Shown: one piece after another, positions 9,740 through 64,000 of the stretch | Layout: every line of letters begins with the position of its first letter | Numbering within the stretch: the first letter of the stretch is position 1 | Assembly: GCF_963676685.1 (NCBI RefSeq) | Contig: NC_092352.1 | Coordinates: 59,210,001-59,274,000 of the forward strand | Direction of reading: 5' to 3' | Length of the DNA stretch: 64,000 nucleotides | Source: Mytilus edulis | Lineage: Eukaryota | Position numbers and translations under genes: made by a program | Notes under the pieces: model-generated | Database searches by the model: none | Seen by the model: only the letters and a program-made list of their open reading frames with translations | Told to the model about the DNA's origin: nothing

Positions 9740-11738
9740 TCACAAGTTTTCATATGTATGATGTTCTATATAAGGAATTGTTTGATCATTTTCTATTTTA
9801 CCGAGGTGATCAGCTACGTCATACGTGTCATCAACTGAATGGTCGTACATATCGTCAGAGGTGGTACTCTTATGTCTGTTGAGATGCGCATGATCATAAA
9901 TGTCATCCACGGTTTCAATATACGGATCATCATCTTTGACTTCATCACATATTGGCGATGCTAGTTCATAATTATTTGCAGTAACTGTGGTTTGATTGCT
10001 TCTATCGTATCCAGTTTCTACCGGGTCAAGGGTAAAGTAAACAGCTGATGACACATGTGGTATATCGCTGTTGTTGATTTGTTCTTTGACTGTCCGGAAT
10101 GATCCGGTTTCAAGCTGATCTATCGTGAAATAACTAGACGATGGTACTTTATTTACTCCGCCATTTTTTATTTCTGAGAATGCAATATTTTGATGGCCAC
10201 AATATGTGTACGATTCAGATTTCACCATGCCATGTGTTGTATTATCTTTCTTTTGTTCAACTGTGGTGTGACAAGTAAAATATCTATAGAAAAATAAATG
10301 AAATAGCAGCTTTTACCATTCTTCAATATTCATCAATAAAATTAGCCTTATCCTTCCAACCTCAAACACACCAAAAGGGACGTTTTCGTTGATTTGACAA
10401 TGGTCAAGCCTCTGCCACACGATGGTACATAATAAACTTTGAATATAAAAAAGATGATGTGGTATGATTGTCAATTAGACCACTTTCCACAAGAGACCAA
10501 ATGAAATTAACAACTAGATGTCACCGTACGACCTTCAACAACGAGCAAAGTCAATACCGCATAGTCAGCTATGAAAGGCTTTAAAATGACAATGTAAAAA
10601 AAAAATCAAACGATAATACTAATGGCCTAATTTATATACAAACAATGAACGAAAAAAAAATATGTAACACAAGTTGGCGGGATCCAAACCCTCGTCCTAA
10701 TCTGTGACAGTGCTGTAACAGTACAACATAAGAACGAACTATAAAAAACAGTCGAAAAAGTCGAAAAAGTCATTCGATTGAAACAAATAAATAATACACA
10801 AAGTGGACGTAGCCGGGTAATTGTATATCCCAACAACAATAATACAATAAGTACAGATGTGAAAGTACTCGCAGTTACTGACAGCTAGTTCAAAGCCATT
10901 TTAAAACAACTAATAAAAAGTCATGCATCTAAGACTAGTAAGTTATCAATCAGAACCCATCCAACATCCAATGGAGTCTGCTTTCGCCTTCATGCATTAA
11001 ATGTTGACATACCAGGCCCTTTTATAGCTTAAGGGTAGTTGTATCACGGAAACATCTCTTCAGTGTTACAAATAGATAGACCAGGATAAAACTACATGTT
11101 GAGCATCTAAATCATGACGTCTGTTAACGCATTATTCAATAAATTGATAATGGAGGAGGAGGGAGCATACATTTGGAAATACGAGATGTATTTTGATTCA
11201 GTGCAACCACTTATCAAGATATGCTTACCCTTCCGAAGCATGTGAAAATTCCCTAAGTTTTCGGCTTGATTCGTGTTGCTCACTCTTTGGATTTCTATGT
11301 TGTGCTTTGTGTACTGTTGTTTATAGAAATTAGAATACGTGGCACGAGTGCAAATGAGACAAGTAAACTCTCCATCTAAGTCACAGTGTATAAAAAGTTA
11401 ACAATTATAGCCTTCAACACGGAGCCTTGGTTCTAACCGAACAACAAGCTATAAAGGACCCCAAAATTACTAGACTGAGTGTAAACAATTAAAACAAGTT
11501 TGTCTGATTGTCTGATTTATTTTTTAACTAGGTAATCATTTCATTTTTGATATACAAATGTATTGGTTTGAATGTAGCTTTGGTATTATTCACCTCTGTA
11601 TTATAACACACTTTCAAGCCTAAAAATTTACGTTGTGTTCAAAAAAATTATATCATAATTACCTTTTTGCTAAGAAAACAAACAGTGTAAAAGAAACTAT
11701 CCCTACTGCTCCACCAATTACACAGATTAGTAATATAA
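9740..11738 (-). CDS. Gene B: multi-tyrosine-tail receptor, TM exon and cytoplasmic exon (ectodomain unresolved)
   Basis: 76-nt TM exon 11738-11663 (ILLICVIGGAVGIVSFTLFVFLAKR) splices in phase 2 to terminal exon 10283-9740, which carries SSYFTIDQLETG, VYFTLDPVETGYDR, NYELASP, IYDHA, MYDHSVDDTYD and C-terminal TYENL. Confidence 0.75.
10446..10975 (+). repeat. Abundant interspersed repeat (AAGATGTGGTATGATTGCCAATGAGACAAC family)
   Basis: Homologous to 17620-18050 and to minus-strand copies at about 29430-29905 and 26680-26790. Confidence 0.7.
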
Positions 11739-12559
11739 CTGTTAAATATAAATGGTTTCATTCTATTATTGACAATTGCAAATCGGCATTTTATATTTTT
11801 ATCTAGATATATTTATAGTATTTGTTCAAGTGTCGACGTATTCTTATCCTTAGACAGAAAGTAAAACATATAAAAACAAGGGGAATACGTTATGTTGTGC
11901 ACGGGATGTAAACAAATGCAGACACGTCCAGCTGGTCTGCATCAAACGTCTTTTGAAGGAATATTACAACTGACTCTTCTCAGCTATAGGAACCATTGGG
12001 ATTTTTTAATTTCTGTACCTATGCAACATAACATAATTTTTTTCAAGTGATTGACGAAGTATCAGCCATTGTTTTCATTTTTTCATTTTATGTGTTGTTC
12101 TGATCAAAGTTGAAATGTTTATCTAGGAATGGAAAGAAAAAGACATTCGATTTCTCTTAATATGTACACTTTTCTCGGATCATATGTAAAAGAATTGAGA
12201 CAGTTTATAGTTTAATATATTGTATATCTATTATCGGAGACACGGATGCAGTTGGGATAATTTTTAAATAGCACCAAATTGTTTGACAAGTTGATTGATA
12301 TAAATAATTGTTATGCATTCAATGATCAAAAGTTTCGGGTTAATCCATTTTGAAAAGTGTTTTTATTATTGAGATATATGGCAAAAGAGGAAGCATATAT
12401 TGATAGTAATGTTTTTTTTTCGATCCAAGTGCATGCTTTTAATGCCTAGTGTACTTTTTCAAAGAACCCAGCTATTTGTGGTTGGTCTTCATTTGTTTCA
12501 TGACTTCATGCATGACTGTTTGAATTTATGAAATTGATGGAAAACTAAATGTTTCAGAG

Positions 12560-13340: not shown

Positions 13341-15106
13341 CCCAAAAGTTCGTATGAGCTTGTACTTACTATTGTTGTCAAGGCCAGCTGTTTCGTCAGC
13401 CAAGGCTGAAATTGTCGTGTTCCCTGCAAGACATGGGTATCGCATTGATTACATGTGTGTTCATGTTATAGTAGACGTAAATGATACGCTTACAAAATGT
13501 ATGGCTTGCATAAGTCATTAAAAATGGTATGTTCATGTTAAACTGTTTTACCTCAAATCCAAACGTTATAACAATCTTATTTCGAAGATGTGAACGCCTT
13601 TTGATCATACTTCTTAATATTAAAAGACTGTTAATCACGTGTTGTATTATACCGTAAAATATTAAACGGCGATTACAAAAAAGGTTACAGATAGTGAAAA
13701 ACAAATTTCATTACTTATTGGTAATTAATGTTCATTACACAAGTACCTCCTTTACAGGTTGTTGCTACAGACTCATTTGTCAAATAAAAGTTAGAATACG
13801 AATAATGTTTTCACAATAATCGCAATAGGTATATCGTTAAATACAGCAAATTGTACTTTTACATATGTACAAAGAGTGCACTTCTTTATAGAACTGAAAC
13901 GTACATGTTGCATACACACAATTAACGTGTAGATAACATGTAAAATCAATTTGTGAGAAACGAAAGAAATATATTCAAATATAACATTATATAACTTTAC
14001 GAAAATGGCGTACAAATCATTTGTAACTGTTTATAAGTATTTGATTTAATTAGATAAAACACAATATGGTGTCAGCTCCCTTTTTTACCACTAGTTTATC
14101 ATTTTCTCAAAGAGACGTCAACACGGCAAACATTACTTCCAAAATAGGTAGAAACAGAAGCTTCTACGTCGAAACTTTGGCGGCGAGAAAAAAATGGGAC
14201 TCAGCCCCCCCCCCTTTTTTTTGAAGTAACGAGGTTGCTCCTTTAAGAAATTCATTTTGGATGATTTGCAGTAGTTTAAATATGTCTCAATTACGCATTA
14301 AAAACGTAGGCTGCATCAGCGTGCTTACAGACGAAGAAAAAGATTTGCGATGTAAAGGATCACTACATTTCTATCTTTTCTGTTTGTTTCAAATGGTATT
14401 TTTTCTCCAAGGAGTATTTGGCAAAGGGAGGGGGTAATGTTTGTTTTATTTCTAATTGTATTTTAACGGATCTGAGATAATACACAAACAAACAATTAAC
14501 CTCACCCTTTTTCAGTAATGCATTTGTGAGTGAATCGTTGTTTAAGTAAAGACCAGTGGCAAATATTTCTGTCAGTGTGTACGTCCAGTCGATTCGAGAA
14601 GACCTTTTCAAATGAATTATATGTTCGGCAATGATGATGGATGAGTCTTGATAAGGGGTTAATATGGCTACGTAAAGTGTGTTTATAACAAATAAATATA
14701 TCCAAGTTTAGACAAATATTTCTGAAAAGAACTTATAAATTATTAATAAGTGTTCTAAGTATCAATTTTATATAAAAATCGTTTCTTTTTTAAATATACA
14801 ATGGAAAATTAAAGTTCTGAATGCCTAGTTTTGTGTACACTTATCGTACACAAGGCCTACATCGACTATCGACTGCATGTAGACAAAACATGATTTTAAC
14901 TACATGTAAACATTGAGTTTTATTAATGGGAACGTAATTATGTTTTGTTTATGTGTGTGTTATAATAACACAACACCGAGTTTAGGTCAATGTGAACACG
15001 GCCTATATAGACGCCCACTACATTGTACATTTGATAATTATAATAAAATAATTTAAACGTTACAACAAGTAAAATGTCACGACTAACAGTAGGTGTGGCA
15101 TTTATG

Positions 15107-19093: not shown

Positions 19094-22000
19094 CTATACA
19101 TTTATTTTCTTTTGAAATAAGTCATAATCATCTGATGTCCGTTTTTCTCTACATAATTCATAATTAGCGTGATCTGCTTTTCTTGGTCCGCCATATTGCT
19201 GAGGTGTTACATAGTACACATCTTCAGAATGGCTATACAGATTGTTTTCACTTTTTGCACATTTGTTATAACTTTCACCAGCAATATTGTAGGTGTCTGC
19301 ATTACACGCACTATCACTGTTCGATACACAATTAGGGGCCTCTTTTTCACTGTCGGCTGGTTTTGCAAGTTCATACTGTTGTGGTTCATATGACGTAGTG
19401 TTTGAAATCGGTTTTGCAAGTTCGTAATTTGTCGCGTTTAAATCTTTGGTTTCACAAAAATCGTCACTTTTATATTTATTTTTAGTTGACACTTTTAAAA
19501 TTTTTGACCGATCGGACCCATCATCGGTTGAAGACAAATCGATATAATCTCCGATTTTCATTTCTTTCTTACTAATCGGAGTTTGTTTTACATGAACACG
19601 TGCATTATTCCCAAGGTCAGTAGGACGGTTATTATAGGGAGGTAACTTCGGAGGTTCCAACGAATCGTACACCGTCATATAACTATGTGGTTGATCAAAA
19701 CGAACTTGTGAGAATTCATCATACTGATGATTTCTCCCTTCGCTATAAATTCCTAGAGTGTCGTATTCTTCATTTTCGCCATTGGTTACGGTTGTCAATT
19801 GAGAATCAGTTGAGGTTACATTCCTATGTCCATTATTATTATAATGTTGATCGTATTTTCGTTTATTAAAACATGAAAATCTGTAAAAAAAATATGTAAG
19901 AAATAAAACATGGATTTTCGAAACGAGTTATGAAGTCTCGTATCAAAATCGTAGACTTAAAATGTATCAGCAGATGTTTTACATTGTCAACTACGGCTAC
20001 GGTGCTATCTACAGTACATCAAGAAAACAAACCACTTCCCCATTGCAACGATTGTAAGCTTGAGTTTACTTGTTTTACGTTGTTCTTACTTGTCAGAGTA
20101 CCAAAGTTCTTACACAGAGTACATAACCTGTTGAAAATTATATATTCCGGAATCTAAAATCGGTATCATAAAAAAGCATACATAGTCAGTACTCAGCTAT
20201 TTTTTTTTTTTTTTGGTTATTAGTCAGAGTAAAGGGTACTGATTTCAATTAAGTTTTTGATTTTTTTTTAGTACTCAGCTATTCGCAAGAAGTTACAAAA
20301 TTTCCCTCAGATTTTGTTTTTTTAACTACAGTAGTTCAAAACTAAGGTCAGGGTAAGAATTTTCGATTAGTGTAATATTCGCATGCTTACCTTCTCAGGA
20401 TGACAACACATAATATCAATACCAATAACAGAAATATCAGCCCTCCAACCACGCCTCCAAGAATACCTATAACATGATAACAAAGTTTAATTTAGAACTT
20501 GAACTAATGAATTCCACTTTAGTGTACATTTTTAGATATTGATACATTTACATGTTTTGGGAGATTTTTTATCAGCACTGATGCATGCGCAGTGACACAT
20601 ATTACACTGCATATCTGGATTCTTGACCCGTAAACCACGGCGACATCATGACTAAAGCCATCCCCTCCCACCATCCATTTGTGTTTGTAGAACTTAAACA
20701 TGTCTCCTTATTTTTCAGTGGTAAATTGAAACGTTGCTAAATTCTACATCACTCTGGTGACAATAGTTGTCTCATTGGCAATCATACATGTACCATACTT
20801 TCCATTAAAACACACTCTGTCTACCATTATGTCCATTTCTTTGTTGATTGCTTTTCATTGAAACTGGTTTTTTTTTAATAAACTTCCTAATAATTGTATG
20901 GTTATATCTAGATCATTATATAAAACTTACTAGTGACGATTGGTTGATTTGCAGTACAATCTTACTAGGTCAACAACGTTTCACCTTATATATATATATA
21001 AGCTATCGAGAATTCCCCTATTATTCTATATCAAACCGATGTCAAAAACTAACTTAGTTGAGGTCTGATTTTGATGATATTTTTAATGTTAAACTAATGT
21101 AGAATTATTTTTTTTTTAAAAGTGTTTTTTATGAAATAATAGGAGAATTTTTCAAAAGTGAAACACTGTGACTGTTGACTCAAGACTGTTCATGTACTGT
21201 AACATAAAGACTGTACATGTACTGTAACATAAAGACTGTACATGTACTGTAACATAAAGACTGTACATGTTCTGTAACATAAAGACTGTACATGTAATGT
21301 AACATAAAGACTGTACATGTACTGTAACATAACATAATAAATTAATCATTACATACCAGCTGTTAGAATTTTATCCACTTGAGAAGTTCTGTTTCCATTT
21401 GTACTATTGGTTGGGTATGTAGGTGTTGCTGGAAATGAACATTTATTTTTATTTATTTCAGTTTCAACATTTTGAGTGTACAATTTGCATAATTATATGA
21501 GATTCTGAAATTGGATCCTTCATTTCCTTACTCTTGAACTTGTTAGACCATTTTTGGCTGTTCTTAACTTATTGTTACGAAAAGCACTGTTCTCTATTCT
21601 TTATGTTTTGATGTTATTATTCTTCAGTCTTCAATTTTTATCCTTTATTTCCACACTTTTCACCCCAAGTCTCTTTTCTGTAAACCCTATTCAGATACTT
21701 GGGTATGGAAAATACAAAGGGTACATGTAGCTTTGGTACCAAAAAAATCATGAATAATTCTGGTAACGTTACTCTTTTTTTTTTTCAGAAACGAGTAATA
21801 TTCTGTATCACCTTGTTATATGGCAATTTTCAACCATTGTTTTGAAAGTTTAAAGTCTTACAATGAAATCCTCAATTTGTAATGCGAAACCAGAGACAAG
21901 TAAATTTTGCCATAAATGACCTACATGTATATTATATATATCGTCGAAAGTTTTATCTTTGTTAAAAAAACAAATGACACTACAATAACTATTTTTTGCT

Positions 22001-25000
22001 AGGAAAGGGCTGCTTTTACATCTTTTCTAAATTCAAGTGGGTGAATTGCTGGTCTGACACCATTGTCCTATATTTAGCCCCGTGATGTAATTACCAAAAA
22101 AATAAAACAAACAATGCACTTATTCCGATAAACAAGGATTTTTTAAAAGGTTATCTTTACTGATAACTTTTTAAAACAATCATGTTGAAATGAATTTATG
22201 CGTGTTGTATAACAGAATGCACTTGGCGTTATAGATCTTTAAAGATTTGTAAGTGCATACCGACTACACAAGAGGGTCTGGAAAAGGGGGGGGGTGTCCT
22301 TCAGTTCCGTATTCTGTATTTTTGTTTTTGCCATTTTCTCTACATGTTTTAGACCCTCTGTCATTAGTCTCTATTCTTTTGTTATTTCCCCCCCCCCCCC
22401 CCCTTTCTGTAGTTTTTGAACCTAGTATGTATTTTACTTGTAGATTCGTCTATTATTCGGAGCACCCTTCGAGAGCTGGGAGGGTACAGTGGAATCCATG
22501 TACATTTCCTTTTGGGATTAATGAAGACGTGTCACTAAGTTTAGGTATTTACAACAATATGTAAAAGGCCAATCCCCACCCCCGAGTGCTAGGACATCGA
22601 TAAGTATGTTATATGGGGGAGGAAGTCTATTTATTTTACGAAAGCCACATCCAGACCCTCATATATACATGTATTAACAATAAATAGTGACCACTTGACA
22701 CAAGTACACGCAATAAGGTTGTAAATAAAACAAAAGGAAATAGACACGGGTCATAAATATGTCAAGTATGATATCGCCCTCATACATGTAATCGACCGTT
22801 CTGAATATTTCTTAAGTTTATAGGATATATAAAAAAATAATTGTTGACATGCTTACTTATAAAGTTCATATGGACGTTCATATCATTCAACTTTTTGTTT
22901 ATTATAATTTCTTTTTATTTAGAATGCGCCACACAACACTTGTTACACAGTAATATAAATAATCTTTTAGAAAACAAAATAACCAATATACTAATTTCGC
23001 ATTGTTTTTAAGCATATCTGAATGTCACAGTTCTGAATCTATTTTTCACTGTTTCGGTACAGGTACTCTGAGGGAACCATTACAAAGCAAGGCAAAATGT
23101 TTACCTCCTTAAAAAAAAAAAATTACAAAAAAGAAAAATACCACATTCTGTGTTATTTTCAATTCAAATTGAATTCGTCATCATGGTCATGACTAACAGC
23201 AATATTTGCCACCTTAAGTTCAAACAACAAGGAATAAATTAAGCAATTAAACAAAGCATTATACTTTAGAAAATATAAATTGGTGAGGTATAACGTCATC
23301 GACTCTAACAGTTGTGGTCGCAATAATTATGTTCTTGACTAATAAAAAAATCGACATACCATATTTGTCTTTATCTGTAGTCTCTCTGGTTGCTCTGGTA
23401 CTCGTTTGTATCCTACCTAAGTGATAAATCAAAAATACATAAAAAAAAAATGTTTAGCATTATACCTCAATTTCATATCGACTATAAACTGACACTGAGA
23501 AAAAAATGAATCTTATTGAAAAAAAACCAACCACCATGATGATTATAGTAAATGAAAAAGTATCTTCAAATTCGTTTTTCTATCACCAATTGATATCTAA
23601 AGCAAACACACTTCTGTATGGTGTTGTTTGATGTTCTTAAACATAAAGTAAGTACTATTACTAAATCTCTTTTATTTTGCCGGTACATTTTAATTGCTAC
23701 GTCTTTAATACAACCATAATGTCAGTACAAACTATTGACCAGTCTTAAATCACAAAACCGAAGATGGAATGTCAAATGATTTTTTCTCCTTTTTCTCCAC
23801 TTTGGTTTATAGCTCTTCGTCCTTTTTATAAGCTATGGTTTTCAAGAATTTTGGCATCGAGCATCACTGACGAGAAATTGATTATCGAAATTTGCATCTA
23901 GTGCTGAAAAATTGGTATAGTTTGTTATTATTATGAAGGTGACATATTTACCTTGTGTGGTTTTTGAAAAATATCCTGGAAACCGTGTAGATCTTTTATT
24001 TGCATTGCTTGTGCTAGTTATCTTGACAGTTGTAGTAGAGAAGTCGTCATCTATGTCTAAAGATAATAAAAATATTACTGGGGGATCAAACAAATGTCAA
24101 GGTTAGCAAACATCAAAGATTTCTACATTTCTTTTTATTCAAAGCAACCAAGTCTCAGTAATCGACAAATGGCTAACAGGCAATATTTAGTCCAGAGAAA
24201 CTACATATAGGTATAAATAAAGGCAATATTAGTATTCAGTCATAAATCTATTTAACTTAAACAAATCCGGGTCACAACCAAAACTGAGAGAAACCCTTCA
24301 ACTCTAAGGGAGAAAAACCAGAACAACAGAAACACTGAACTGCTACAAAACAAACGCCAACATATACAAAGAAACGGACTATGTGATAACAACTGCCATA
24401 TTCATGACTTGGTCAATGAATAAAATGTGGGTTGAACCTGGTTTTATGGCTAGCCAAAACTCCCACTTATAATGCAATGTTAAAAATACCGCTAAATTAA
24501 AGTAATAACATTACGCAACAGGAATATACATGTTACAGTAGTACAAATCAATGCAAGAACACTCAGGACAGATAAAAGCATATATAAATGATAAAGTTCA
24601 TTTCAAAATGTAAACCACAGAATAAAGCGAACTCGATGTTCAGAAAGCTTAAATAGTTTTTACTTCGCTTGAACTCATTCTGTAAATATGTTGTGAACGT
24701 AAAGACAAGATAGTATACGGATAATTTTGTAACAACAACTTGGGAGACATTAAAAGGACATGTACTGCCACGGTCTTATCATGAATATACCATCAACCAA
24801 CAATACAAGTACAATGTTGGCTTCTAAAAAATATTTCAAATGAAATGTAAGTGGATTGAATTTCAATAGACTCTGAATATGATTTGTTAGAGTTTGCATG
24901 GACGGAATATCAACACGACTAAAAAAAAAAACAACATAAAAGACACAAAAGGACAAACAACAGTTCACAAAACAAAGCAAAGAAAAGTGATGTGCAAGGT

Positions 25001-36300: not shown

Positions 36301-36613
36301 TTATATTAGCCACTACATTATTATAAGATGTTCGATTTTTTTATAATACAACTGCACGTATAAAAATATCTACATACAAACCAAGCTTAATGTGTTTTTT
36401 TATTTAACATATCATTCAATACTCAAATTAATATTCAATACGTATGTATGCAAACCTGGTTTATACCTTTGTTGCGAAATATTCATAGTTTTTAGGATTG
36501 CAGTGGTTGAAGCATATATTGGTTGACATTTCATTATTTGCTGTTGTGAATGGTCCAACATGTAATAGTCTTCTACTGCCACGATCTTTAAAGCATCCAA
36601 TGTAGGTGAACAT
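30340..36613 (-). CDS. Gene D: WSC-domain single-pass receptor with multi-tyrosine tail (413 aa from the Met at the WSC start; N-terminus uncertain)
   Basis: In-frame segments 36613-36467 (MFTYIGCFKD...ICFNHC...YFATK), 35415-35259 (LKYHCFCGNG...DCYMKCRGHPSMNCGGIWAASVY), stalk 33224-33153 and 32552-32490, 76-nt TM 32135-32060 (IGIGLTIVVFLSIVAAVSFLFWRRR), tail 31066-30340. All 8 WSC cysteines present. Confidence 0.8.
35861..36303. mobile_element. Foldback MITE with ~200-bp inverted repeats, in the intron that splits the gene D WSC domain
   Basis: AATGAAATTCAAAACAGTGTGGCTGTGGCCATTGATTGACACATTAAA... is mirrored at the right end and the symmetry continues nearly to the centre; TA flanks. Confidence 0.85.
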
Positions 36614-37061
36614 TTCTATGAAATGCTGAAATATTAAAATGCAACAATAGAATAAAATTATTGCATGCACTGTTTGATTTGATATTGAACATAGGACAAT
36701 CCTGAAATATCTTGTCAATAACCATATCATGTGCTTTAATATTGCATTTGCTTCTTAAGATACATTTATAAAGGTTCATTTTGCTCACGTGAATTTTGCA
36801 TGAAATTCACATGAAAAATTGAATTCGACATTCACCCCAGACTACCTTATACACGAAACTCATGTGACAATTTACATATGAATTTTACGTTTATTGAGAT
36901 TCACATAAACCAGGTATTTATAGATTATCGTTGGTTATCTCAACGAGATTAGTTTTCTCGCTTGAGCCGGTTACGGCGAAAGCGAGTAAAGCAATCGAGT
37001 TGAGATGACCAATGTTAATCTGTTTATCGCAATTTTACCTATGACGACGTTGTCAATTTCC

Positions 37062-47700: not shown

Positions 47701-48156
47701 TATATTGCATGAGTGTGAAAAAACACGAAAGACAACCTAAACGCATTGATATGTTATCCTATTTTTTTCTGATAATTCTCACTCTTTCAATGAAGAATCA
47801 AATTTATGCACCAACCTTTTTTCAAAAGTCTTAGTTCTTTAATCCATTTCAGGCTATCATGATGCATATGGCTAACTATTTTAGATGTAGTTAAATAATC
47901 AACTGTACGTGTATAATTATACGGTATTGAACTCTAGGTATGCATTAAAGATTAATGAAAACTTATCATAATAAGGTAACATTATTATTTATAAACTGTA
48001 CCTCTGTTGCAAAATATTGATAGTTTTTGGAACTACAATAGTTAAAGCAGATGCTGGTCGACATTTCATTATTCCATTTGGTGTATGGTCCTACAGGAAA
48101 CAGTCTTTTTGTACTATCTTTGAAGCATCCAATGTACGTATACATTTTGTGAAATG
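41726..48156 (-). CDS. Gene E: WSC-domain single-pass receptor with multi-tyrosine tail, close paralog of D (378 aa from Met 48145; N-terminus uncertain)
   Basis: Exons 48156-48002 (MYTYIGCFKD...ICFNYC...YFATE), 47025-46869 (YSSQCFCGNG...DCNLPCIGHVKQMCGGSWRASVY), 45163-45131 (PKPSTSYSDI), 76-nt TM 43526-43451 (IGVGITIALLIIIVAVISCLFWKRR), tail 42452-41726 (727 nt, same length as D). All 8 WSC cysteines present. Confidence 0.8.
44347..45110. mobile_element. MITE with TA target duplication (Tc1/mariner-like), in a gene E intron
   Basis: TIRs CTGTGAAAGTACTTT..TTCGTGGG..CAATTTTCGTGG / CCACGAAAATTG..CCCACGAA..AAAGTACTTTCACAG; TA on both sides; shorter relatives at about 38168-38375 and 39746-39955. 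Confidence 0.8.
46375..46592 (+). repeat. Copy of the retroelement 3' tail seen at 4378-4600
   Basis: Closely similar TTTTAATTTTAGTTTCTTGTGTACAATTTGG...CCATTCTCAATTTTA. Confidence 0.8.
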
Positions 48157-50202: not shown

Positions 50203-50368
50203 GAATTCTTTTATAAGGGAGATTCCATGAATGAGGAATTCGTTTATAAGGGATATTCAATGAATGAGGAATTCTTTTATAAGGGAAATTCAATGAATGA
50301 GGAATTCTTTTATAAGAGATATTCAATGAATGAGGAATTCTTTTATAAGGTATATTCAATGAATGAGG
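50203..50368 (+). repeat. 33-bp tandem repeat (GAATTCTTTTATAAGGGATATTCAATGAATGAG) x5
   Basis: Seen directly; explains the repetitive ORFs 50140-50430 and 50165-50458. Confidence 0.9.
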
Positions 50369-51612: not shown

Positions 51613-52088
51613 TTAATAGTGCACTAAATTCGGATCCATCGATGGTGGCATTGCCTCTTCTGTTGATTTGTTTGTATTTTCACTCCATGACAAATGATTG
51701 GTAGGAATATCTCTCGATTGATGGATATATTCAACTGAATTTCGATTGTTCGATAACGAATTATAAGTGTTGCAATTGCAGTTGCTTTCTTCCTGTTGAA
51801 TAGAAGAGGACATGTTTGGTAGTTGACATTGAGTTGTGTTACATGTACTTGTGGGTCTGCTTTTATTTATCCCAGGGATAAAAATATCCGTCATTTCATT
51901 GTAAATTATATCAGTATAACTAGGTAAATCATTCCTATCTGTTATATTTTGATATTGTAGAATCTCACAAGGAGGCAAATCTTTGCCTCGCTTTCGTTTG
52001 AGGCAAACAACTAGGATGACAACAAAAGCAACAAACAATAATAGGACCAACACAGGCAAGAAAATTATTGTATATACTGAGGAATCAG
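51613..52088 (-). CDS. Intact TM-plus-cytoplasmic exon with an ITAM-like motif
   Basis: Acceptor TTTTTTTTGTAG; reads DSSVYTIIFLPVLVLLLFVAFVVILVVCLKRKRG... then YQNI-x8-YTDI, YNEM, YNSL; open to TAA at 51613. Confidence 0.65.
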
Positions 52089-55000
52089 CTACAAAAAAAA
52101 TATATTTACATAAAACAGAAACAAAAACTGCATGCCATAAATATTCATATATATGGCTAAATACAATTCATAATTATATGTTTTTGTATTCTAAAGCTGA
52201 ATAACCGAAAACAAAATGTCGTGTGTTTCAAATCAAAGACATTCATATTAGTATTTCCTGCTAAGTTCGTGTCATGAAGGAGAATAAAAGGAGAATGTCT
52301 TCTAGGTCTGTGTTGACATGAATTATCATTGTTATTGTCATAATTATAAATAAGCTATATACAACACGTTGCATTGTTTAATTACTAAGGCGTTTCTACC
52401 TCCGAAATAGATTCCCTTTGCAGTATTTGGCGAAACTGTTGGAAATGTTTGGTCCACTATGCTCGTTAACTTCCTACTTCATTTGTCCTTTTTAAAACTT
52501 TTTTGATTTTAGTGTTACTAATGAGTCTTTTGTAAAGGAAAAATGCGTCTTGCAAATGTAAAACTTCAGTCCTGATATCCATGATGAGTTTATTTACTGC
52601 GTTAAAAATTCTTGCATTGGACAAAGAAACCGTTACATTTGAGTTTTTAAGTATAAAACGTTTGTTTTTGATTACGTCATTTTTGTTGGTTCATTAAATT
52701 TAGTAAGAAAAAGTCTGAAAATTACGTTATTGGAGACAATTAAAACATATTAATACATATATATATGTTGATCTGGTAATAAATCGAAAGTAAACAAAAT
52801 CAATTACAATCGTGACCGGTGATATACATGTTACATTACTTCTCGCATTACGTTAATATGTTTATAGGTTATACGTTTATAACGCTTATTTGTAACTAAT
52901 AAGGGCAACAGTAGTATACCGCTGTTCGAAAGTCAGCAATTGATTGAAAGAAAAAAAAAACGGGTTACAAACTTAAACCAAGGAAAACCTATAAGAGGTA
53001 AACAACGAAAAAAGTGCAATAAAAAAACCGACAATGTAACACATCCAGAAACGTACTATAACAACTGCATATTCCTGACCTGGTACAAATACACGGTTTA
53101 CCTTTAACAGATTATCTTGTTTCGGAGTTGTTAGGGTATGGTTTGACGTCGATGACTGATGAGCTTGAAGTAAAAAGTATATTATGGTGAGTAAATAAAT
53201 GAAAATATAATGCAGTATTTACTTTCCTTAAATATATTAACGTAATGATTTAAGAGTCAAAATGAGAACCATTTAACGGCACAAGAAACAAACAATACAA
53301 AGCAATAAATTAAAATAACGTATGTGATATGAATTATTGGGATATGTATTGTATTCACAATCAGCCTTTCATTTTTCTTAAATATTTGTAACATATTTTT
53401 AAGAACCCAAACTGATTGTTGTGGTTTCCCTTCGATTGATAAAATATTTGCAACGCGGGGGATATTGTAACATGTTTATTGTTTTTGTGTCTGTCTGTTT
53501 ACGGCATTGGTTGTTTTAAGGAACCAAAAGGACGCAAACAGTACCACACATACACAAATGACGATGGACAAGACGTGGTGTTATCACAATTTTGCATTAT
53601 TTGAACAATACAGACTTTGACGTGTTAAACAAGCTCTAATATCTTTAAATGGACATTTTGTGAAGCAACACATGTACTCAACATATCTGTATATTTTATA
53701 AAGAGAGGCTCTCCATGTTTTACCGCATTTCATTGTAACATGACCTTTGAATAATATGTTGCAATCTTTTTCTCTTTTTCTTTTATACTGTTTGGAACCT
53801 AGTTGTCTCCAATGACCATAAAAAACATTCGTTTCCGTACTTTAATTAAACGTAAATAAAACAAAATGAACTGACTTACAATAAATGAAGATTAAGGTAA
53901 AGTAACAGTAAATGAACGCCGTCTAGCGGATTCCGCGAAATATTGCGACGTTTTGTACGAATTACGTCCCTTTGACCAGATTTTGCAAAGTAAAAATTGC
54001 ACCCGGCGACTTTTCGATGTGACAATGTCAACGGTTTTGACGGAAAGTATGTAACTTCTATGAGAATGAACTTGTTTTTCTAAAATTAAAAATTGAAAAT
54101 GATATGAAAACAGTCCTGAAGAGGATCTTCAAAATGAAAATCAGGACGTAGGGTGGTAGAGTTTGTATATCTGCCGACCAGTTAAACATGTTAAAACAAG
54201 TGTGAAAACTGTTGCTCACTACTATTTCTACATAATTGTGATGAGAAAAAACAGTGTGGTCTCGGAAGTATTCTATATGTTGTATGTCAAAACTGTCCTT
54301 TCAAAAACCCTATATTCACTGGGAAAAGACATCGTCTAGCAGCAAATAAGCAGAAGGGGTGCAAGTTTGGGACATTAATACAAAAGATTCAAAAACTTAG
54401 TATTGTACGGTAAGACTATTTCTCCCATATTTTGAAAATTATCACACCAGTCGGAACAAGGAAAAATATTTTCAAATTAGAGAAAAGGAAATGAACCACA
54501 TAAACTAATACTGGTCATAAATTCGCCGCTGCTGCCAGTCAGTCATAGATGGCACTAAACTATAATACACTTAAATTAATTAACCTTGTTCACGGCTGGA
54601 ACAATAGTTTAATATTCATACACAGTTTTTAGACTATAACAAATTAAAAATAAACAAAAATGATCTTTCACGATCATTAATCCATCGCTACATTTTGTAT
54701 TCTAACGTTGCTGTTTTTTTTTTTGTAATGGTGTTTTCTTTCACGTCCGCAATTTCGATGTTAAAAGTAGAACACAAATCTTTAAATAGATACATGTATA
54801 AATAGTATATGGTTTGAAGATTTATACATGGCTTAGTTTCCTAATAGTATTGATTCGTATGGTTGTCTTCTCAAAGGAATTGTTATATATATATATGGGT
54901 AAAAAATCTACCGAATCAAAAAAAATGTACCCTAGCTGAAAGTAGCATCTCAAATATAAGATAGAACTGTTGTCAATTCTATTTCACTCATAAAACTTGA

Positions 55001-55138
55001 AGGTTGAGAACGAGATTATATCGATCACCTCTATATCATAGTACTACTATATATACCGACTGACAAATATGCACAGTGTCACAGACTTTCAGCCCCCCTA
55101 AAGTTCAATGTAAATCCCGTAAGTAGTCAGTACTTCAA

Positions 55139-55330
55139 TGAGGGTTTCATGATCCCGAAATCTCGGACTTTAAAACATGAAACCCCGAGGTTCCGAATTT
55201 ATAGAAATTTCAATCCCGCCATCCCGAAAAGAATAGCCGGATCCAGAAAGGATCAATCCCGAAATCCCGCGTGCTTAAAAAAACCCGATCCCGGAGTCCC
55301 GTTTAAGGTTTCGTTTAAGGTCCCCCCTCA
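55139..55330. mobile_element. Small MITE-like element with repeated TCCCG motifs
   Basis: Ends TGAGGG / CCCTCA; repeated ATCCCG units inside. Confidence 0.45.
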
Positions 55331-57794
55331 TTTGTGTAGATTGACTAAATAACAAAACACAATATAACCAGTCATGTCTCAGTCTGTGTGCGATTGTTTT
55401 TTACTTGTTTTTTTTCGGTTGGGGGGGGGGGGGGGGGGTATTTTTGTAGGCATATTAAACATAAATATGTACATCTGTTTTTAGGTCATATCTCAACCTC
55501 CGTATATTTGTTTTTACACGATGTATTTTCTGGAAAATACACTGTACTACAAAGACCGTGCAATGTCTTGAGAGAAAGCAAAATTCAGAGAGAGAAGCAC
55601 ATTAATTTATTGTCACATATAATGAGATCTCAAAGCGAGTTGCAGAATAACGGATACTGGTGAATGTCAAAAATTGAACAAAAAAGTTTGCAAAATTATA
55701 AAGAATAACAACGGAAAATAAAATAATTATAAAAAGATAAAGAACATTTAGGTACACACTTCATATTGACCCTAGCTTAAAAATCGTTGGATTATCTCGG
55801 TGTTACTGGTCAGTAATGAATAAAAAATCACTGGTCAATTTAAAGGTTGTTGTAAGTGATGCAATATATTCTTATTTTCCTGTTCCCCTTACATTCCTTA
55901 TGTAACTTCCAGTTTTATTATAGTTTACATCCACCAAAGCCTTAGTTTGATTTAGTTTCCTGTCATTACTACCCCCTTTATTTGTTGCATGTTGCGTATC
56001 ATGTACTGATTCTATATATACTTTGAGCATACATATGTACACTTATGGAACAATAACCATTTAGTAAACTTTTTAAAACGTTTTTGTAGACTTGTATACA
56101 ATAAATGTGATACAGAACAAAAAATATAATAACAAAGATGACAGTTTGTCTGCGTGTTTTACTTGTTAACTTGAAGATGTATTAATAACCACACGACACT
56201 CTTTCAAAAATTTGTAGAATCCTTGATATAATGTTTGTTTATATATGCGATATTAAGCAGCAGTATATGGACAGAACACGTTGTGTACTGATAAAGTACC
56301 AAAACACAAGCTATTACATGTTCGTCATAAAAAGTGTAAACAGATGATTTACAAGATAGTCTAAGAGATTTATGAATTCGTTACCCAAAAATGACAAAGT
56401 TCATCTGTCTTTCATTAGAGCAAATATAAAAAAAGATCAAAACCTTGACCACATGCAAACAGACAGCAAAGTACGTTCCATGATTCAAACTGTAGATGTT
56501 TTGCGGAATAACTATAAACTATAAAGGGGCGGACTAACGGAAGGACGGGCGGTCAGAAATAATGACGGACGGACAGACGTACAGGGGTAGTTGAAGGGGG
56601 CATAAAAAAATATAGCTTCAATTACATCTTTTGTTGCGTCAACTTGTTGACAGTAACCCTGATGATTTCTATTTTTAAGTTTTTACCATTTTTGCGTTCA
56701 TGTACTTACAACGTATTTTTGTCTGAATTAGTAATTGTTTTAGATATGTATATTAATAATGAACATACATGTACCACATTTTTTACAACGTATAATTTTT
56801 TTTAACATGTTCCATAAAAGAGGGGTTTACGGAATACAGAATAATGGGCAAAAATTGCAGAATAAAATGCAAAAAAGAAAAAAAAAGAAAAAGTGTATAA
56901 TGGGGTGCTAAAATATAAAGAATAAAGAATATTGGTTATACTAAATAGAAATTTATGATAATTATCCAGACTCTTATGATAAAAAGAATCTATCAATACG
57001 AAACACATAATCACCGTGCATAATCAACACGAAGAACGTTGGAAATTATAAGCATGATAACTTGACGTTATGTAATAAAAATTACGACGTCACGAATTTT
57101 GATGGTTTTTTTTTGCCAAAATGTTGTGTTTGCGTCGCTTCTACAGGGAAAACGAGGTCGGTGACCATATTTTTTTTAATATCATCTAATTCGTAAGACA
57201 AAGAAAAAAAAAGTATTGATTTAAAAAAAAAATCTATGGAGCGGTTCTCGTGATTAATACCAGAAACCGAAAATTGTAGAAGGAAAATATGGATTTACCC
57301 TATATATTCAATGTAATTTAGTACCCTCTGGGACCGTTTTAAAAATGGATTTTTCTTGAAAACGAAGTCGGTGACATATACTTTTTTTACATTTTCTGAT
57401 GTATATTTTCAATATCTAATAGAGTTCTAAATTTAAAAAAAAATCTATGGACAAGTTTATTTACTGATCCTGGACCTTAAAGTTATTGTATTTATGTTAC
57501 CATTTTACTGAGTAAACTTTTTTTTTGTAACAGTGTTGGTCATACGCTGGCTATATTGACCTTTAGTGAAGTTAATATTAACATGTCAACATTTAGAAAT
57601 TTTATCAGCTGTCAAATGGTTTTAACCTGAATCGAAAAAATGTGAAAAAAAACAATATATATGTGTAAGTCTTTTTATAGTCATATTGGTCCGACTTGCA
57701 TGTTTACAGTCACAAACACAATTTAATGATTTTTTTTTTCGTTTATACAATGTACATTATGCATAAATCAAAAGTAAAGTTAATATACGTATTT

Positions 57795-59150
57795 ATAGAT
57801 ATAAGTAAAGGCAACAGTAGTATACCGCTGTTCAAAAATCGTAAATCTATGGACAAAAAACAAAATCGGGAAAACAAACTAAAACTGAGAGAAACGCATT
57901 AAATATAAGAGGAGAACAACGACACAACATTCAAATATAAAACACATAGCAACGGACTAAGCATTAGACAAAATCCGATGAGAATAACCAATAAAACATC
58001 AAAACCAAATACATGAATTTGGGATAGAAAAGTACCGTGACACGTCTTATAGTAATGTGAATTCATACTCAAATATAGGAGAAAACAAACGACAAAACGG
58101 AAACACAACGTAAAAATGTAACAATGGCCATTTTCCTGACTTGGTACAAGACATTTGTAAAGAAAAAAATGGTGGGTTGAACCTGGTTTTGTGGCATGCC
58201 AAGCCTCGCATTTTCATGGCATTGTTAAATATAACATTAAAATGACAACATAATAATACAGGACTTCAATACAAATAAATAGGAGAACGTATTAGGCAAG
58301 AAAAAGATAACAAAAGGCATCAGGTTTAAAATTCAATACGTCAAAACCGCGCCTTGTCCACACAAGACTTACCAGTGACGCCCAGAAATAAAAGTTCGAA
58401 AGTCAAAAAATGGTACAAAGTTGTACAGCTCTGAGGATCAAAAGTTGAAAAAAAAGGTTGTGCCAAATACGGCTAGGGTTTTCTGCTTGTGATAATAACA
58501 TCCTTATTATTTAGAACAATTTATGCTATTGCAATCAGTAAATTTTATCAAATGAATGTTAAAGATTTACATGATAAAACTGACGTCTTAACTAATCTGT
58601 TACAGAAAACAAAACCCGAATAAATAATACATTGAAGACCAACACAGAAAATAGACACACTCGACTTGGTCCAGGCCTGAACGCAAAAAGTCATAAAATG
58701 ACGTCACATACGAAGTAGTAAAAAGGCACAAAAATTACGTCACGCAGACATATGAATTTCTAAAACAGCACGAATTTGACGTCACATTTGAAAAACTATA
58801 TCTCAAAAATAAGATAGAAATAGGATTGATTTAAGATTATCATAGAACTAAATACTGATATTATATTTAAACACAATGCACATTGCAATACTAATTAAAA
58901 GCAATAAAATCAAAACGTTGGTGATTAATTTTCTTCACCATAACACATGAATATAATAGAAAAGACGTCAAACAATTTGACAAACTCCGATGAAAATTAC
59001 AAATATAACAAATATAACATCAAACTAAATACATGAATTTGGGATAGATAAGTACCGTAACACGTCTTATAGTAATGCGAATTCACACTCATCAAAACAG
59101 TCACAATCGGGAATAAATCACGTTCGGTAATTAAAAGATTAGACGACGTA
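57795..59150 (+). repeat. Composite interspersed repeat with an internal duplication
   Basis: Head AAAGGCAACAGTAGTATACCGCTGTTC also at about 52902 (degenerate at about 24220); ACATGAATTTGGGATAGA..GTACCGT..CACGTCTTATAGTAATG occurs at about 58010 and 59030. Confidence 0.6.
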
Positions 59151-59832
59151 ATGACAAACCACAATCTACCATGTTGTAAAAATGTCCTTAGCTAGTTTGG
59201 TCAAAGACACATCGTATGGGTCAACTAATTCGTGATGGTGTCAATTTTAATCTGTCCTCCTCATAACTTTGTTGAAGCAGTTTCTGTGTAAGGAGCACAC
59301 TTCTGTATATGAAGTCCGTATAGTGTGAAGATATGGTATGAATGTTAATGAGACAACTCACCGTCCAAGTGACGATTAGTAAAATTCAACCACTATAGGT
59401 CTTTAACGCGGAGCATTGGCTCACACTGAATAACACGCTATAAAGGACCCCAAAAAATGACTAGTGTAAAACCATTCAAACGGGAAATCCAACTGTCTAA
59501 TCTATATTTATAAAGCATGTTTATGAAAAATATCTCCTACAACCTCTGTTGCAAAATATTCCAAGTTTGTAGATTTGCAGTGGTGAGAGCAGATTTTGGT
59601 GGACATTTCATAATTTCTTGTTATAAAAGATCCGACAGGCACTAACCTTTTAGAGTTATCTTCAACGTAACCAATGTATATATAATCTGAAATTTTATTT
59701 AGCAGAAGTATATTATTCAATGAAATATATGATTTGATATTGATTATATGGAAATCACACATTGTCAAGTGGTATCTAAAATACACTAAGTAATATTCAA
59801 ATTAAAATTTAAATGTTAAACATTTCAAAGTC

Positions 59833-61136: not shown

Positions 61137-63674
61137 TACTGTTCTGATTTCCATATTTGTTTTGTTATATGAATAGATAAAGCACTGACATATACAGTAA
61201 AATCAATTGAAAACACTTTTCTTACAAAATTGACAAGCAAATCATGCCTCCAAAAAAAATGGAATAGTTAAATACGTTTACTCATTTTGTGTGAAACATG
61301 TCAATGTTTTCATTTAAAGGATATATATATGCAGAGAGATGATACAGGGCTACCCACTTTATTTCGCCAATGTCCGTTCCATTTTCCTTCATAAACATGT
61401 ATACACATGTTAAAACTCTTTCTATTGACAATTGTGGTTTTTAAAAGGCGATTTTCCGATCAAACCACAAAACCACGTGATACTAAAGTATTTTTTAGCA
61501 GTTATTCTATCCTTCTTCAATATACTTATATGACTATTTGGTGGCTCATATATTTTATTTTACATTGTATTGGACAACGCATGACGGGGAATAAAGAAGA
61601 TGTCGAATTTCAAATCTAATATATTCAGTGTAAAAAAAAATCACATACAATAAAAAACAAAATTATAAAAAACATTAACGTGTGATACATTGTGTAAACA
61701 CTTGTCCATGATTATCCAACAAAAAATTGTTTATTTAAATTTAGAAATAAGACTATTGATTTCCGTCGTCTTAAAAAAAACCGAAGCTGTTGAAATAACC
61801 TGCCTATATGTAGTCTGATTGTACATTTCCTATTCTAATGCAGCTATTGTTTTTACAAAAAAAGAACTTTATATTTAGTAAAGCAATATCAAGTATCATG
61901 GGATGTATGAGATGCAAACACAATTCTAAAGTCAACACACACTACACAAAAATGCAGTGAAAATAAATCTTTCATAAAGCGAAATCCTCAAGATATGTCA
62001 TTTGATCTGCCTTTTACTGATACAAATCAAGTCGGGAAGGCACATAAACCACGTACACGTTGGCTTAAAAATGAGTTTTGACGGTTTTGTAAATGCAAAA
62101 TTATCCTGACAAATATAAATGGTCAATTAAACAATCAAGTATGCTGATGTCGTAGCAATAACTTTTAAAATTCAAGTGAATACAAATGAAAACTACAAAT
62201 GCATTACATTACTAAATAGTTTTTAGACAATTAAGTGGCAACTAAACGTGTGTTTGATAATAATAATGTAAAAATTATCACATAAATACAAATGTATGGT
62301 TTCCATTTAAAGCACTTGCAAGTTACTATTTGAATGTAGATCGGTAGTATGACGACGACAGACAAAGGTCGTTCTTGATTCCATGCGATACCCATTACTT
62401 CTGTATTTTTAGCTGTATTCGTCAATGCTGTTTCTATTAGCGAGACGTTAACCGAATTTTTCTTTTATACAGCTAACGATCTTAGGTTTTAAGATAAATT
62501 TAAATAAACAAAATGCAGACTAGGTTCATGTTTATTGGCATTGACACTTATACCACATTTTCTTATATTTGTATCTAATTTTCGGTGGTTCAAAACAGAG
62601 ATTTGCTTGCATGGTTAGATATTGACTTTTAATTGGCATTATAGATATCGTCCTCTATACTGTCATATATACATGCCTAGAATAAATATGGATAACAGGT
62701 TGAAAATTCAAATCATTAAAACACGTTGATTTTACCGTTGTTGTTGAAAAAGTATTTCTTTCATTACTAAAAACACGATAAAACATTTTGCTGTATAGAA
62801 ATTCCACAGAAAGCTAATTCGGGCATTGTGTACATGTATGAAATATAAAGTCTTCCCAAAGTACAGTGGCTATGATTGAGCACAGTGATGTATTTTAGTA
62901 GTCTTACTCAAATTAATATGTTCTGTTTCTAGTATGGACATTTAGTTATTTAAGTGATTGAATAACATACTCTGTGTGAACCTGCATAACAAATTTAAAA
63001 TAACGAAAAATGGATTAAACAACACACTGATTAAACATTATCAAGTATAAAACATGTGTCATTAGTTCATTTTTTTTAGAAACACAATAAAACCATGAGT
63101 ATGGGTTGCCGTACATTTTCAAAATGTCTAAATCTAAAACATTGTTTAATATAGTATTGAAGCTAAATATAAAAATGTTGTCTAACTTTTCACCATTTTA
63201 TATTTCCAAGAATTTGACAATGTATAATGACGTCACATAAAAAGTTCATAGCAAAGTCTCTTTCTATAGATCATTGAATATAACTCGAAAAATCGACTGC
63301 ATTCTTATAACCAATGATAAAAAGGTACCAACATTTTCTGCAACAGATAAGCATTTTGACAATGAAGAACTCTTCAGTGATCTCGAGGCCAAAATATTTG
63401 AAAATCCAAAATTTATAAAAAGTATTTAGAGCTATAAACCGAAAATTACAAATAAGTATAGCCAAATCCGAGCAAGGAATCAGAGCTATGCCCGAGGTAG
63501 ATACATTCCTTAATTTTAAAAAACTACAAATATTTTGTAACAGCTAATTTTAATAACACAAAATTTGTATTTTCGTTGACAGTTCAATTCAGGACGATAT
63601 GAACCAAAATGTGTAGAGACATACACACAATAAATACGCTAAAAAAATCCATGGCCATCATTGACACAATCTAG

Positions 63675-64000
63675 CTACAAGTGATCATAATCATGCGATG
63701 AATCTCCTGTCCTTGGTGATCGATTTTGATTTGTTGTGTCATACACAGCATCAACAGAATGACTGTATGTATGTTCGTTATCATCTTTTGGTCTGCATAC
63801 TTGATTCAAAATGTCATATTGACCATCCTTATTTAGGATATAATTCCCTTCTTCACTTGTTTCATGATTCTGAATAGCATGCTCTTGAATAGATTTACCA
63901 GAGTTCTCGATTTTTAATGATTGAAAATGCATGTCGTCTCTGTGTTTCGTCCGGTCAAATCCAGTCTCGGCTGGGTCAAGGACAGTATACGAATCATCAT
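63675..64000 (-). CDS. Gene G: 3' part of the tail exon of another multi-tyrosine receptor paralog (continues past the window)
   Basis: Open from the window edge: DDSYTVLDPAETGFDR...EGNYIL..DGQYDILN...TYSHSVDAVYD...DYDHL*, the same motif order as B, D and E. Confidence 0.75.
   Translation of the reverse strand, partial: DDSYTVLDPAETGFDRTKHRDDMHFQSLKIENSGKSIQEHAIQNHETSEEGNYILNKDGQYDILNQVCRPKDDNEHTYSHSVDAVYDTTNQNRSPRTGDSSHDYDHL

What the first reader, a model, noticed from the sequence alone, without database searches (positions are those of the whole stretch)
9740..64000. Conserved ordered tyrosine-motif cassette in otherwise divergent tails
Seen, in the same order: motif 1 YxxLD(P/S)xxTG(F/Y) = B YFTLDPVETGYDR, D YAILDSTATGFSK, E YDTLDSTETGFSK, G YTVLDPAETGFDR, C degenerate YIDLSSTDDGSDR; motif 2 NYELAxPI (B, C); motif 3 (D/E)GxY(N/D)xLN (D, E, G); motif 4 Y(S/D)H(S/A)VDxxYD (B, D, E, G; C has YSHSEDVYY); then terminal YDH repeats. 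The linkers between distant paralogs are not conserved. Inference: these are docking sites, and motifs 1 and 4 do not fit the ITAM/ITIM consensus, so they may be undescribed signalling motifs.
Basis: partly seen in the sequence, partly recalled or inferred. Interest (0 to 1): 0.7.

Follow-up and report, generated by a model that had tools for sequence, protein, structure and literature searches.

The report
Mussel receptors sharing one tyrosine tail
A mussel genome carries at least 50 copies, nearly all on one chromosome, of a receptor inner tail that is joined to very different outer domains and whose tyrosines keep fixed spacings and change less than the sequence between them, so the tail likely works as a portable phosphotyrosine docking module of a kind not found in the searched literature.

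Summary
The motifs are real. They lie in the single last exon of five minus-strand, single-pass receptor genes (B, C, D, E, G) of a Mytilus mussel. They are divergent copies of a cassette found at 51 or more places in this genome, almost all on contig C9, and in 122 protein clusters at 50% identity; every hit that names a species is Mytilus. The same tail sits under WSC, MAM, SRCR, SUEL-like, Kringle and DUF3011-like outer domains. Motif windows change less than linkers in 10 of 10 paralog pairs while synonymous rates are equal. ITAM and ITIM consensus are not met, AlphaFold gives no fold, and Pfam has no family for the tail. Best reading (0.6): a disordered phosphotyrosine scaffold. The pair would bind a tandem-SH2 enzyme, with SHP2 the likeliest (about 0.3): D+4 and T+8 match Gab1's C-SH2 site, but the hydrophobic -2 residue is missing. 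No binding or phosphorylation was shown.

The parts
9740..10283 (-). Gene B last exon: 180-aa tail with motif 0 (~10204), motif 1 pair (10132 and 10039, 31 aa apart), motif 2 (9973), Y-x7-Y pairs (9922, 9847)
   Evidence: contigs of runs X1 and X3 (RNA is a guess) cover 9782-10236 and 9789-10084; profile score 63.8 bits
11663..11738 (-). Gene B predicted TM exon, ending in a phase-2 donor
   Evidence: splice not shown by the listed RNA joints
13370..13423 (-). Gene B predicted stalk exon; no signal peptide or outer-domain exon found upstream before gene C
   Evidence: tblastn with P0001; sequence read; exon scan of 13430-19090 empty
19094..27183 (-). Gene C, 457 aa: signal peptide, DUF3011-like domain, S/T stalk, TM (20391-20466), 261-aa tail exon (19094-19880) with degenerate motif 1 (19546), motif 2 (19429, repeated), motif 4 (19237)
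   Evidence: six CT..AC joints in one 1487-nt contig of X1, five also in X3; open frame; close relative P0356 hits DUF3011 at E 4e-5, just under the cut-off
30340..31066 (-). Gene D last exon: 242-aa tail with motif 0 (~31026), motif 1 (30666), motif 3 (30528), motif 4 (30471), YDH (30399, 30357)
   Evidence: one 1199-nt contig of X1 holds both the WSC exon and this tail
32060..36625 (-). Gene D WSC exons (36625-36467, 35415-35259), stalk exons and TM exon ending at 32060
   Evidence: close relative P0354 WSC E 8e-17
41726..42452 (-). Gene E last exon: 242-aa tail with motif 1 pair (42151 and 42046, 35 aa apart), motif 3 (41920), motif 4 (41863), YDH (41791)
   Evidence: 69% identical to the D tail
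43451..48156 (-). Gene E WSC exons (48156-48002, 47025-46867) and TM exon ending at 43451
   Evidence: joint 47025-48002 CT..AC in X1
51613..59700 (-). Gene F: WSC-type exons, TM and a different tail without the cassette; internal negative control. Its second WSC exon looks degenerate
   Evidence: profile score 0.8 bits
63675..64000 (-). Gene G, end of its 356-aa tail: last motif 1 (63989), Y-x7-Y (63842), motif 3 (63827), motif 4 (63767), YDH (63689). Three more motif 1 copies, the TM exon and the WSC exons lie beyond the window (L007, L008)

Best explanation
These motifs are divergent copies of one exon-encoded cytoplasmic cassette, shared by at least 50 kinase-less single-pass receptor loci with different outer domains, and the cassette likely works as a disordered phosphotyrosine docking scaffold. 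Shown: the family, its location on C9, the variety of outer domains, the phase-2 TM-to-tail intron in B, C, D, E and G, constraint on the motifs and fixed tyrosine spacing. Inferred: ligand binding by the lectin-like or scavenger-like outer domain would cluster the receptor, and a Src- or Syk-type kinase would phosphorylate the tyrosines in their acidic context. The membrane-nearer YxxΦD pair, 24-25 residues apart, would then bind a tandem-SH2 enzyme. SHP2 is the likeliest (about 0.3), with the second copy folding a short helix on the C-SH2 domain as Gab1 does. The distal 8/16/8/16/12 array would recruit further SH2 adaptors in a multivalent way. Because tyrosines 8 apart are closer than two SH2 domains are known to sit, alternate tyrosines (24 apart) would be the pairs read together. 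An immune or microbe-sensing role is a guess from the outer domains and the expansion.
For: Family size: 52 rows at 51 loci in the own genome, 49 rows on C9, plus B and its paralog; 122 clusters at E<=1e-3. Outer domains: of 51 longer hits scanned, MAM 12, WSC 6, SRCR 6 (2 with SUEL), Kringle 1, DUF3011 1, TM-type only 1, none 24; no kinase or phosphatase domain. Tyrosine conservation: four distal tyrosines are kept in 105, 103, 104 and 102 of 109 aligned representatives, with Phe in at most 2 per column. Selection: over fixed column windows, non-synonymous divergence is 0.066 in motifs, 0.147 in linkers and 0.031 at tyrosine columns, while synonymous divergence is 0.244 vs 0.261; 10 of 10 pairs go the same way; 2 of 133 shifted windows are as low (the regex version agrees). 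Spacing: 97 of 99 for the 8-residue pair; 35 of 64 successive YxxΦD sites are 24-25 apart. Polarity in 33 terminal pairs: the first copy has A at +1 in 61%; the second has L+3 97%, D+4 97%, P+5 97%, T+8 91%. Gab1 pY659 uses D+4 as a possible helix cap, and T+8 and L+11 as contacts on C-SH2; the tail model's only helix of four or more residues is 17-20, right after that D. PD-1's two SHP2 tyrosines are 25 apart (abstract) and Gab1's 32. Acidic residues two before a tyrosine are enriched (402 vs 252 shuffled). SHP2 is in this genome.
Against: No phosphorylation or binding data exist here. SHP2 N-SH2 hallmarks (I/L/V at -2, F/H at +5) are not met: -2 is D, E, N or H and +5 is P or Q, and the hydrophobic residue sits at +10 rather than Gab1's +11. 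Known single-SH2 patterns are not enriched and several are depleted (YxN 78 vs 141, YxxP 26 vs 47, YxxQ 28 vs 57, YxxM 16 vs 23), so the distal array has no named reader. 52 of 122 representatives lack any YxxΦD site (some are fragments). The window's own copies depart from the 24-25 spacing, except G: B 31, E 35; D shows one copy and C a degenerate one. Shuffle z-scores ignore relatedness, and the hits were selected by a profile of these same motifs, so only the paralog-pair test is fairly independent.
Confidence: 0.6

Rival explanations
1. Same scaffold, different reader: the YxxΦD pair is an activating site for PLC-gamma, Syk or Shark/HTK16, or for a mussel-specific SH2 family, rather than for SHP2. 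This rival lies inside the 0.6 of the best reading.
For: Acidic -2/-3 residues are ITAM- or hemITAM-like: DxYxxL 29 vs 5.9 shuffled. Hydrophobic +1 to +3 after acidic residues resembles PLC-gamma sites (recalled, not checked; one search found no paper). Modelling suggests that tandem-SH2 families accept similar pTyr spacings. Exons resembling Syk, Shark and PLC-gamma SH2 domains (labels recalled), and a cluster of similar SH2 exons on C12, are in the genome.
Against: ITAM spacing is not met in the cassette, and the D+4/T+8 extension has a precedent only for SHP2 C-SH2 among the passages read.
Confidence: 0.3
2. The tyrosines are unphosphorylated sorting signals (YxxΦ for adaptor complexes), and the receptors are endocytic or phagocytic scavengers.
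For: YxxΦ is enriched (410 vs 255); YDHF and YxxL fit it; the outer domains are lectin-like or scavenger-like.
Against: NPxY (4 vs 4.4) and acidic dileucine (8 vs 14) are not enriched. The best-kept tyrosines (YDxS, YxHxV) lack a +3 hydrophobic residue. Sorting does not explain up to nine tyrosines at fixed spacing or the extension to +12.
Confidence: 0.15
3. The distal 60 residues are a small folded or metal-binding module (conserved His, Asp, Gly), and the tyrosines are structural.
For: Fixed spacings; His kept at four columns in 55-81% of rows and Gly in 79-80%.
Against: AlphaFold2 with 48 sequences gives pTM 0.18, no strands and one short helix; no Pfam family; Atlas structure hits TM<=0.27; the unit is duplicated in tandem inside some tails and truncated in B and G; Phe hardly ever replaces Tyr.
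Confidence: 0.15
4. The shared motifs are neutral leftovers of tandem duplication in a Tyr/Asp-rich tail.
For: The family is a tandem expansion and the tails are compositionally biased; linkers are themselves under some constraint.
Against: Motif columns change less than half as often as linkers at equal synonymous rates in 10 of 10 pairs; motif 1 occurs in three to five copies in 14 of 122 tails.
Confidence: 0.04

Closest known systems
ITIM/ITSM receptors and BTAM ligands of SHP2 (PD-1, Gab1; PMC8631942 passages, bioRxiv 10.1101/2024.12.23.630100 parts 1-3 of 4, PMC12905495 passages)
   Same: Two YxxΦ sites about 25-32 residues apart in a disordered tail; Ala at +1 of the first site; D+4 and T+8 at the second, as in Gab1 pY659.
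   Different: No hydrophobic -2 residue, Pro at +5, aromatic residue at +10; a further six or seven conserved tyrosines follow; no sequence homology shown.
ITAM and hemITAM receptors (consensus as quoted in PMC9546547 passages)
   Same: Kinase-less single-pass receptor, YxxL core after acidic residues.
   Different: Spacing is 24-25 or 8, not 10-13; the second tyrosine of the distal pairs lacks L/I at +3.
Hydractinia Alr and Botryllus fester co-receptor families (PMC9546547, PMC12065747; passages)
   Same: Lineage-specific clustered invertebrate receptor family with tyrosine-motif tails.
   Different: There the Ig-type outer domain is shared and the tails vary, carrying canonical ITAM/ITIM/hemITAM; here the tail is shared and the outer domains vary. 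No link to allorecognition is shown.
Biomphalaria GRC and PTC2 single-pass gene clusters (PMC7494358; passages)
   Same: Mollusc clusters of diverse single-pass proteins proposed to sense carbohydrates or parasites.
   Different: The word 'tyrosine' does not occur in that main text; no snail protein was named among the hits; no resistance link for the mussel genes.
Oyster CgNCAM1 ITIM receptor (PMC11841013; passages)
   Same: Shows tyrosine-motif receptor signalling in bivalve haemocytes.
   Different: Ig/FN3 receptor with two ITIMs and SHIP2 as partner; not hit by the tail profile.

Membership tests
ITIM receptor | [S/I/V/L]xYxx[I/V/L] in the tail | tested here: not met
   39 matches vs 44.1 in shuffles over 122 tails; in the window only B's first copy and E's second copy match
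ITSM receptor | TxYxx[V/I] | tested here: not met
   6 vs 12.0 shuffled
ITAM receptor | Yxx[L/I] x6-12 Yxx[L/I] | tested here: not met
   13 of 122 tails match (17 sites vs 4.6 shuffled), but no match lies in the cassette of B, C, D, E or G; G's one match is upstream of it
hemITAM receptor | DxYxxL, single | tested here: inconclusive
   29 vs 5.9 shuffled, in 21 of 122 tails; G has three; the sites usually come in pairs
SHP2 BTAM ligand | two YxxΦ sites within reach of tandem SH2 domains | tested here: met
   35 of 64 spacings are 24-25; PD-1 25, Gab1 32
SHP2 BTAM ligand | N-SH2 preference: I/L/V at -2, hydrophobic +3, F/H at +5 | tested here: not met
   +3 is met; -2 and +5 are not
SHP2 BTAM ligand | Gab1-type C-SH2 extension D+4, T+8, hydrophobic +11 | tested here: inconclusive
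   D+4 97%, T+8 91%, but F/Y at +10 85% and N/D at +11
SHP2 BTAM ligand | phosphorylation-dependent binding and activation of SHP2 | not testable with these tools
   needs biochemistry
Receptor tyrosine kinase or receptor phosphatase | intracellular catalytic domain | tested here: not met
   none in 51 scanned proteins or 6 tails
Alr / FcoR allorecognition receptors | Ig-superfamily outer domains | tested here: not met
   no Ig family among the Pfam hits of 51 proteins
Alr / FcoR allorecognition receptors | high allelic polymorphism linked to self/non-self response | not tested
   no population data analysed

The most novel reading that the evidence does not exclude
Mussels evolved their own class of receptor tyrosine motif, separate from ITAM and ITIM: a one-exon module built on a 24-residue ruler that has been moved under many outer domains. 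It gives a repertoire of more than 50 receptors on one chromosome a common output, possibly read by a co-expanded mussel SH2 family such as the cluster on C12.
Probability: 0.25. Interest if true: 0.8.

Novelty: new variant of a known kind. Interest (0 to 1): 0.55.

Why it matters
Bivalve genomes hold many lectin-like and scavenger-like receptors, and how most of them signal is unknown. A single conserved tail under WSC, MAM, SRCR, SUEL-like, Kringle and DUF3011-like domains groups dozens of 'uncharacterized' mussel genes into one family. It also makes their output testable with a few synthetic phosphopeptides. The design (shared tail, varied outer domain) is the reverse of the Hydractinia and Botryllus receptor families. 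If the Y-x7-Y array has its own reader, it adds a new phosphotyrosine grammar.

Tried and rejected
Complex prediction of mussel SHP2 tandem SH2 (P0244, residues 24-244) with G's 46-residue motif pair: no verdict (score 0.00; alignments not used; no phosphotyrosine; controls not folded). PDB profile search with the motif-pair alignment: 0 hits at E<=10. ESM Atlas with a tail: one feature hit at 0.84 (unnamed, mostly Mollusca), a lead only; structure hits TM<=0.27. First homolog search with B's tail gave only P0001, a model that fuses C and B. No RNA holder on record was listed for 9700-19500; contig runs are RNA by guess. Two raw-read RNA runs (6% read) gave mean depth of about 1 or less on the C tail exon and near 0 on B's, which says nothing firm on expression. 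One search showed few of the D/E joints because repeat-derived rows crowded the table. The careful tree did not finish; the quick tree (51 rows, P0100 left out, long-branch warnings) was used and no one-clade test was run. Literature: searches returned no listing that describes this family; and one search returned 0 papers. Subscription papers and supplements were not searched and could name it. Earlier scan notes by place and by sequence returned nothing. Rejected: Grb2, PI3K, Crk, STAT3, Nck, NPxY, PPxY and PxxP consensus as the basis of the cassette (none enriched).
Full report
Setting. The window is G000:C9:59210001-59274000 of a 1.37-Gb genome. Every relative that names a species is Mytilus: 47 of 48 hits (one unnamed), and 13 of 30 clusters looked up (the other 17 carry no organism).

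Gene anatomy. Gene C is spliced along six canonical joints in one contig of run X1, five of them also in X3 (RNA status is a guess). It reads as 457 residues: signal peptide, DUF3011-like domain, S/T stalk, TM helix, tail. D, E and G have WSC exons, a TM exon and a tail exon; one contig holds D's WSC exon and tail together. In B, C, D, E and G the TM exon ends in a phase-2 donor and the tail is one exon. B has stalk, TM and tail exons, but no outer-domain exon was found. F is a WSC-type gene with an unrelated tail and serves as a control.

Observation check. All quoted motifs are present in order. The five tails score 22-90 bits against a profile made without them, versus at most 9.5 for shuffles; F scores 0.8.

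The family. One short query finds 52 rows at 51 loci in this genome at E<=0.01. Of these, 49 rows lie on C9, in clusters near 36.7-37.7, 50.0-51.8, 58.6-59.9, 67.2, 72.3, 78.4-78.5 and 83.9 Mb, and 3 on small contigs (a lower bound, and some may be pseudogenes). A profile of 23 tails finds 122 clusters at 50% identity. Of the 51 longer hits that I scanned, Pfam gives MAM 12 (2 under cut-off), WSC 6, SRCR 6 (2 with SUEL), Kringle 1, DUF3011 1 (under cut-off), TM-type only 1 and none 24. Upstream exons in this genome show the same variety by eye. On a quick tree of 51 tails, WSC needs 7 changes among 8 rows, no fewer than shuffles (166 of 500 as low). MAM (7 changes) and SRCR (4) are clustered but not single groups. 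This suggests repeated exchange of outer domains; long branches, partial gene models and mosaic ectodomains weaken the point.

Constraint. In 109 of the 122 representatives (those of 110 aa or more), four distal tyrosines are kept in 102-105 rows, and many linker columns have a top residue under 30%. Because hits were selected with the motif profile, I tested close paralog pairs from this genome at codon level. With fixed column windows, non-synonymous divergence is 0.066 in motifs, 0.147 in linkers and 0.031 at tyrosine columns; synonymous divergence is 0.244 and 0.261. Ten of 10 pairs agree, and 2 of 133 shifted windows are as low. A regex-based mask gave 0.051 vs 0.151. The pairs were my choice from 20 tails.

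Grammar. The distal tyrosines are spaced 8 (73 of 92), 16 (69 of 100), 8 (97 of 99), 16 (75 of 101) and 12 (63 of 68), so alternate tyrosines are 24 apart. YxxΦD occurs 134 times in 70 of 122 tails, and 35 of 64 successive sites are 24-25 apart. In 33 terminal pairs the first copy favours Ala at +1, and the second is nearly fixed at L+3, D+4, P+5, T+8, G+9, F/Y+10, R+12. ITIM, ITSM, Grb2, PI3K, Crk, STAT3, Nck, NPxY and dileucine patterns are not enriched; YD, Y-x7-Y, DxYxxL and YxxΦ are (shuffles ignore relatedness). AlphaFold2 gives no fold: pTM 0.18 and one short helix just after D+4. Pfam has no family for six tails.

Mechanism. A kinase-less receptor with a disordered tail, constrained tyrosines in acidic contexts and almost no Tyr-to-Phe exchange is, by established knowledge of immunoreceptors and adaptors, most simply a phosphotyrosine scaffold (inferred, 0.6). 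For the pair, the closest precedent that I read is Gab1 pY659 on SHP2 C-SH2, where D+4 may cap a helix and T+8 and L+11 supply contacts (parts 1-3 of 4 of the preprint, supplements not seen). PD-1's sites are 25 apart (abstract). Against SHP2, its N-SH2 hallmarks at -2 and +5 (passages) are absent, so SHP2 gets about 0.3 and the other SH2 readers together about as much. The smallest spacing with evidence of tandem-SH2 engagement is 10 (passages), so the 8-spaced pairs are unlikely to be ITAM equivalents. Alternate tyrosines, or a domain that reads two phosphates, would be needed (inferred). Mussel SHP2 is present: one exon is identical to named Mytilus PTPN11.

Comparison and novelty. It works like ITIM/BTAM or ITAM receptor families but is a member of none by their defining patterns. 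It differs from the Hydractinia Alr and Botryllus FcoR families (passages) in sharing the tail rather than the outer domain. The Biomphalaria clusters (passages) are a mollusc analogue without a described tyrosine cassette in the passages read. The oyster NCAM1 paper (passages) shows ITIM signalling in bivalves. The Mytilisepta atlas (passages) does not describe the family. PMC12905495 and PMC8631942 were read as passages. Public records call these proteins uncharacterized or name one outer domain. Searches found no description. No oyster or scallop protein was named among the hits, but that limit rests on sensitivity and on 17 unnamed clusters.

Verdict. Observation confirmed and enlarged; interpretation partly supported; a new variant of a known kind; interest 0.55.

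Noticed in passing
window 9740-13423 and 19094-27183: B has no detected signal-peptide or outer-domain exon of its own, and its stalk exon is in the same phase as C's exons. B may be an alternative TM-plus-tail end of gene C; a public M. coruscus model (P0001) fuses the two.
   Followed up: partly
L023 / G000:C9:51017205 with L048-L049: A tail 86% identical to B's lies 8 Mb away with no B-like TM or stalk exon in the 20 kb upstream. The nearest upstream exons are a different TM and a WSC-like exon 15-17 kb away: possible recent move of the tail exon, or an orphan copy.
   Followed up: partly
window 51613-59700 and about 100000-109300 in extended window coordinates: Two WSC-type genes (F and a relative beyond the window) carry a different, cassette-free tail among the cassette genes, a paired-receptor-like layout; F's second WSC exon has lost cysteines.
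   Followed up: partly
G000:C12, about 37.39-38.36 Mb (L081, L086, L095, L101-L102): A cluster of about eight SH2 exon hits, three of them read and alike; the best PDB match of one is SHP2 C-SH2 (E 1e-10). One has a B-box-like exon upstream (label by eye). Candidate lineage-specific readers.
   Followed up: partly
extended window about 78900-79900 (L008): A D-like WSC exon pair beyond the window with a frameshift in the first exon, probably a pseudogene.
   Followed up: no
L040 (G000:C9:72.32 Mb), P0057, P0062, P0088, P0096: Tails in which the distal Y-x7-Y unit is repeated in tandem three or more times, showing that it is a repeat unit of its own.
   Followed up: partly
L050, L054, L014, L104, L110, L112: Many members share a cysteine-rich membrane-proximal domain that Pfam mostly misses and that looks SUEL-lectin-like by eye.
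   Followed up: no
window 7541-8610 (+): A plus-strand single-pass gene with a Cys-rich juxtamembrane stretch and a Pro/Tyr-rich tail, unrelated to the cassette.
   Followed up: no
window 5478-5577: A run of 100 N, an assembly gap, outside the finding.
   Followed up: no
window 50137-50485: A short tandem repeat with a period of about 11 codons, open in both orientations.
   Followed up: no
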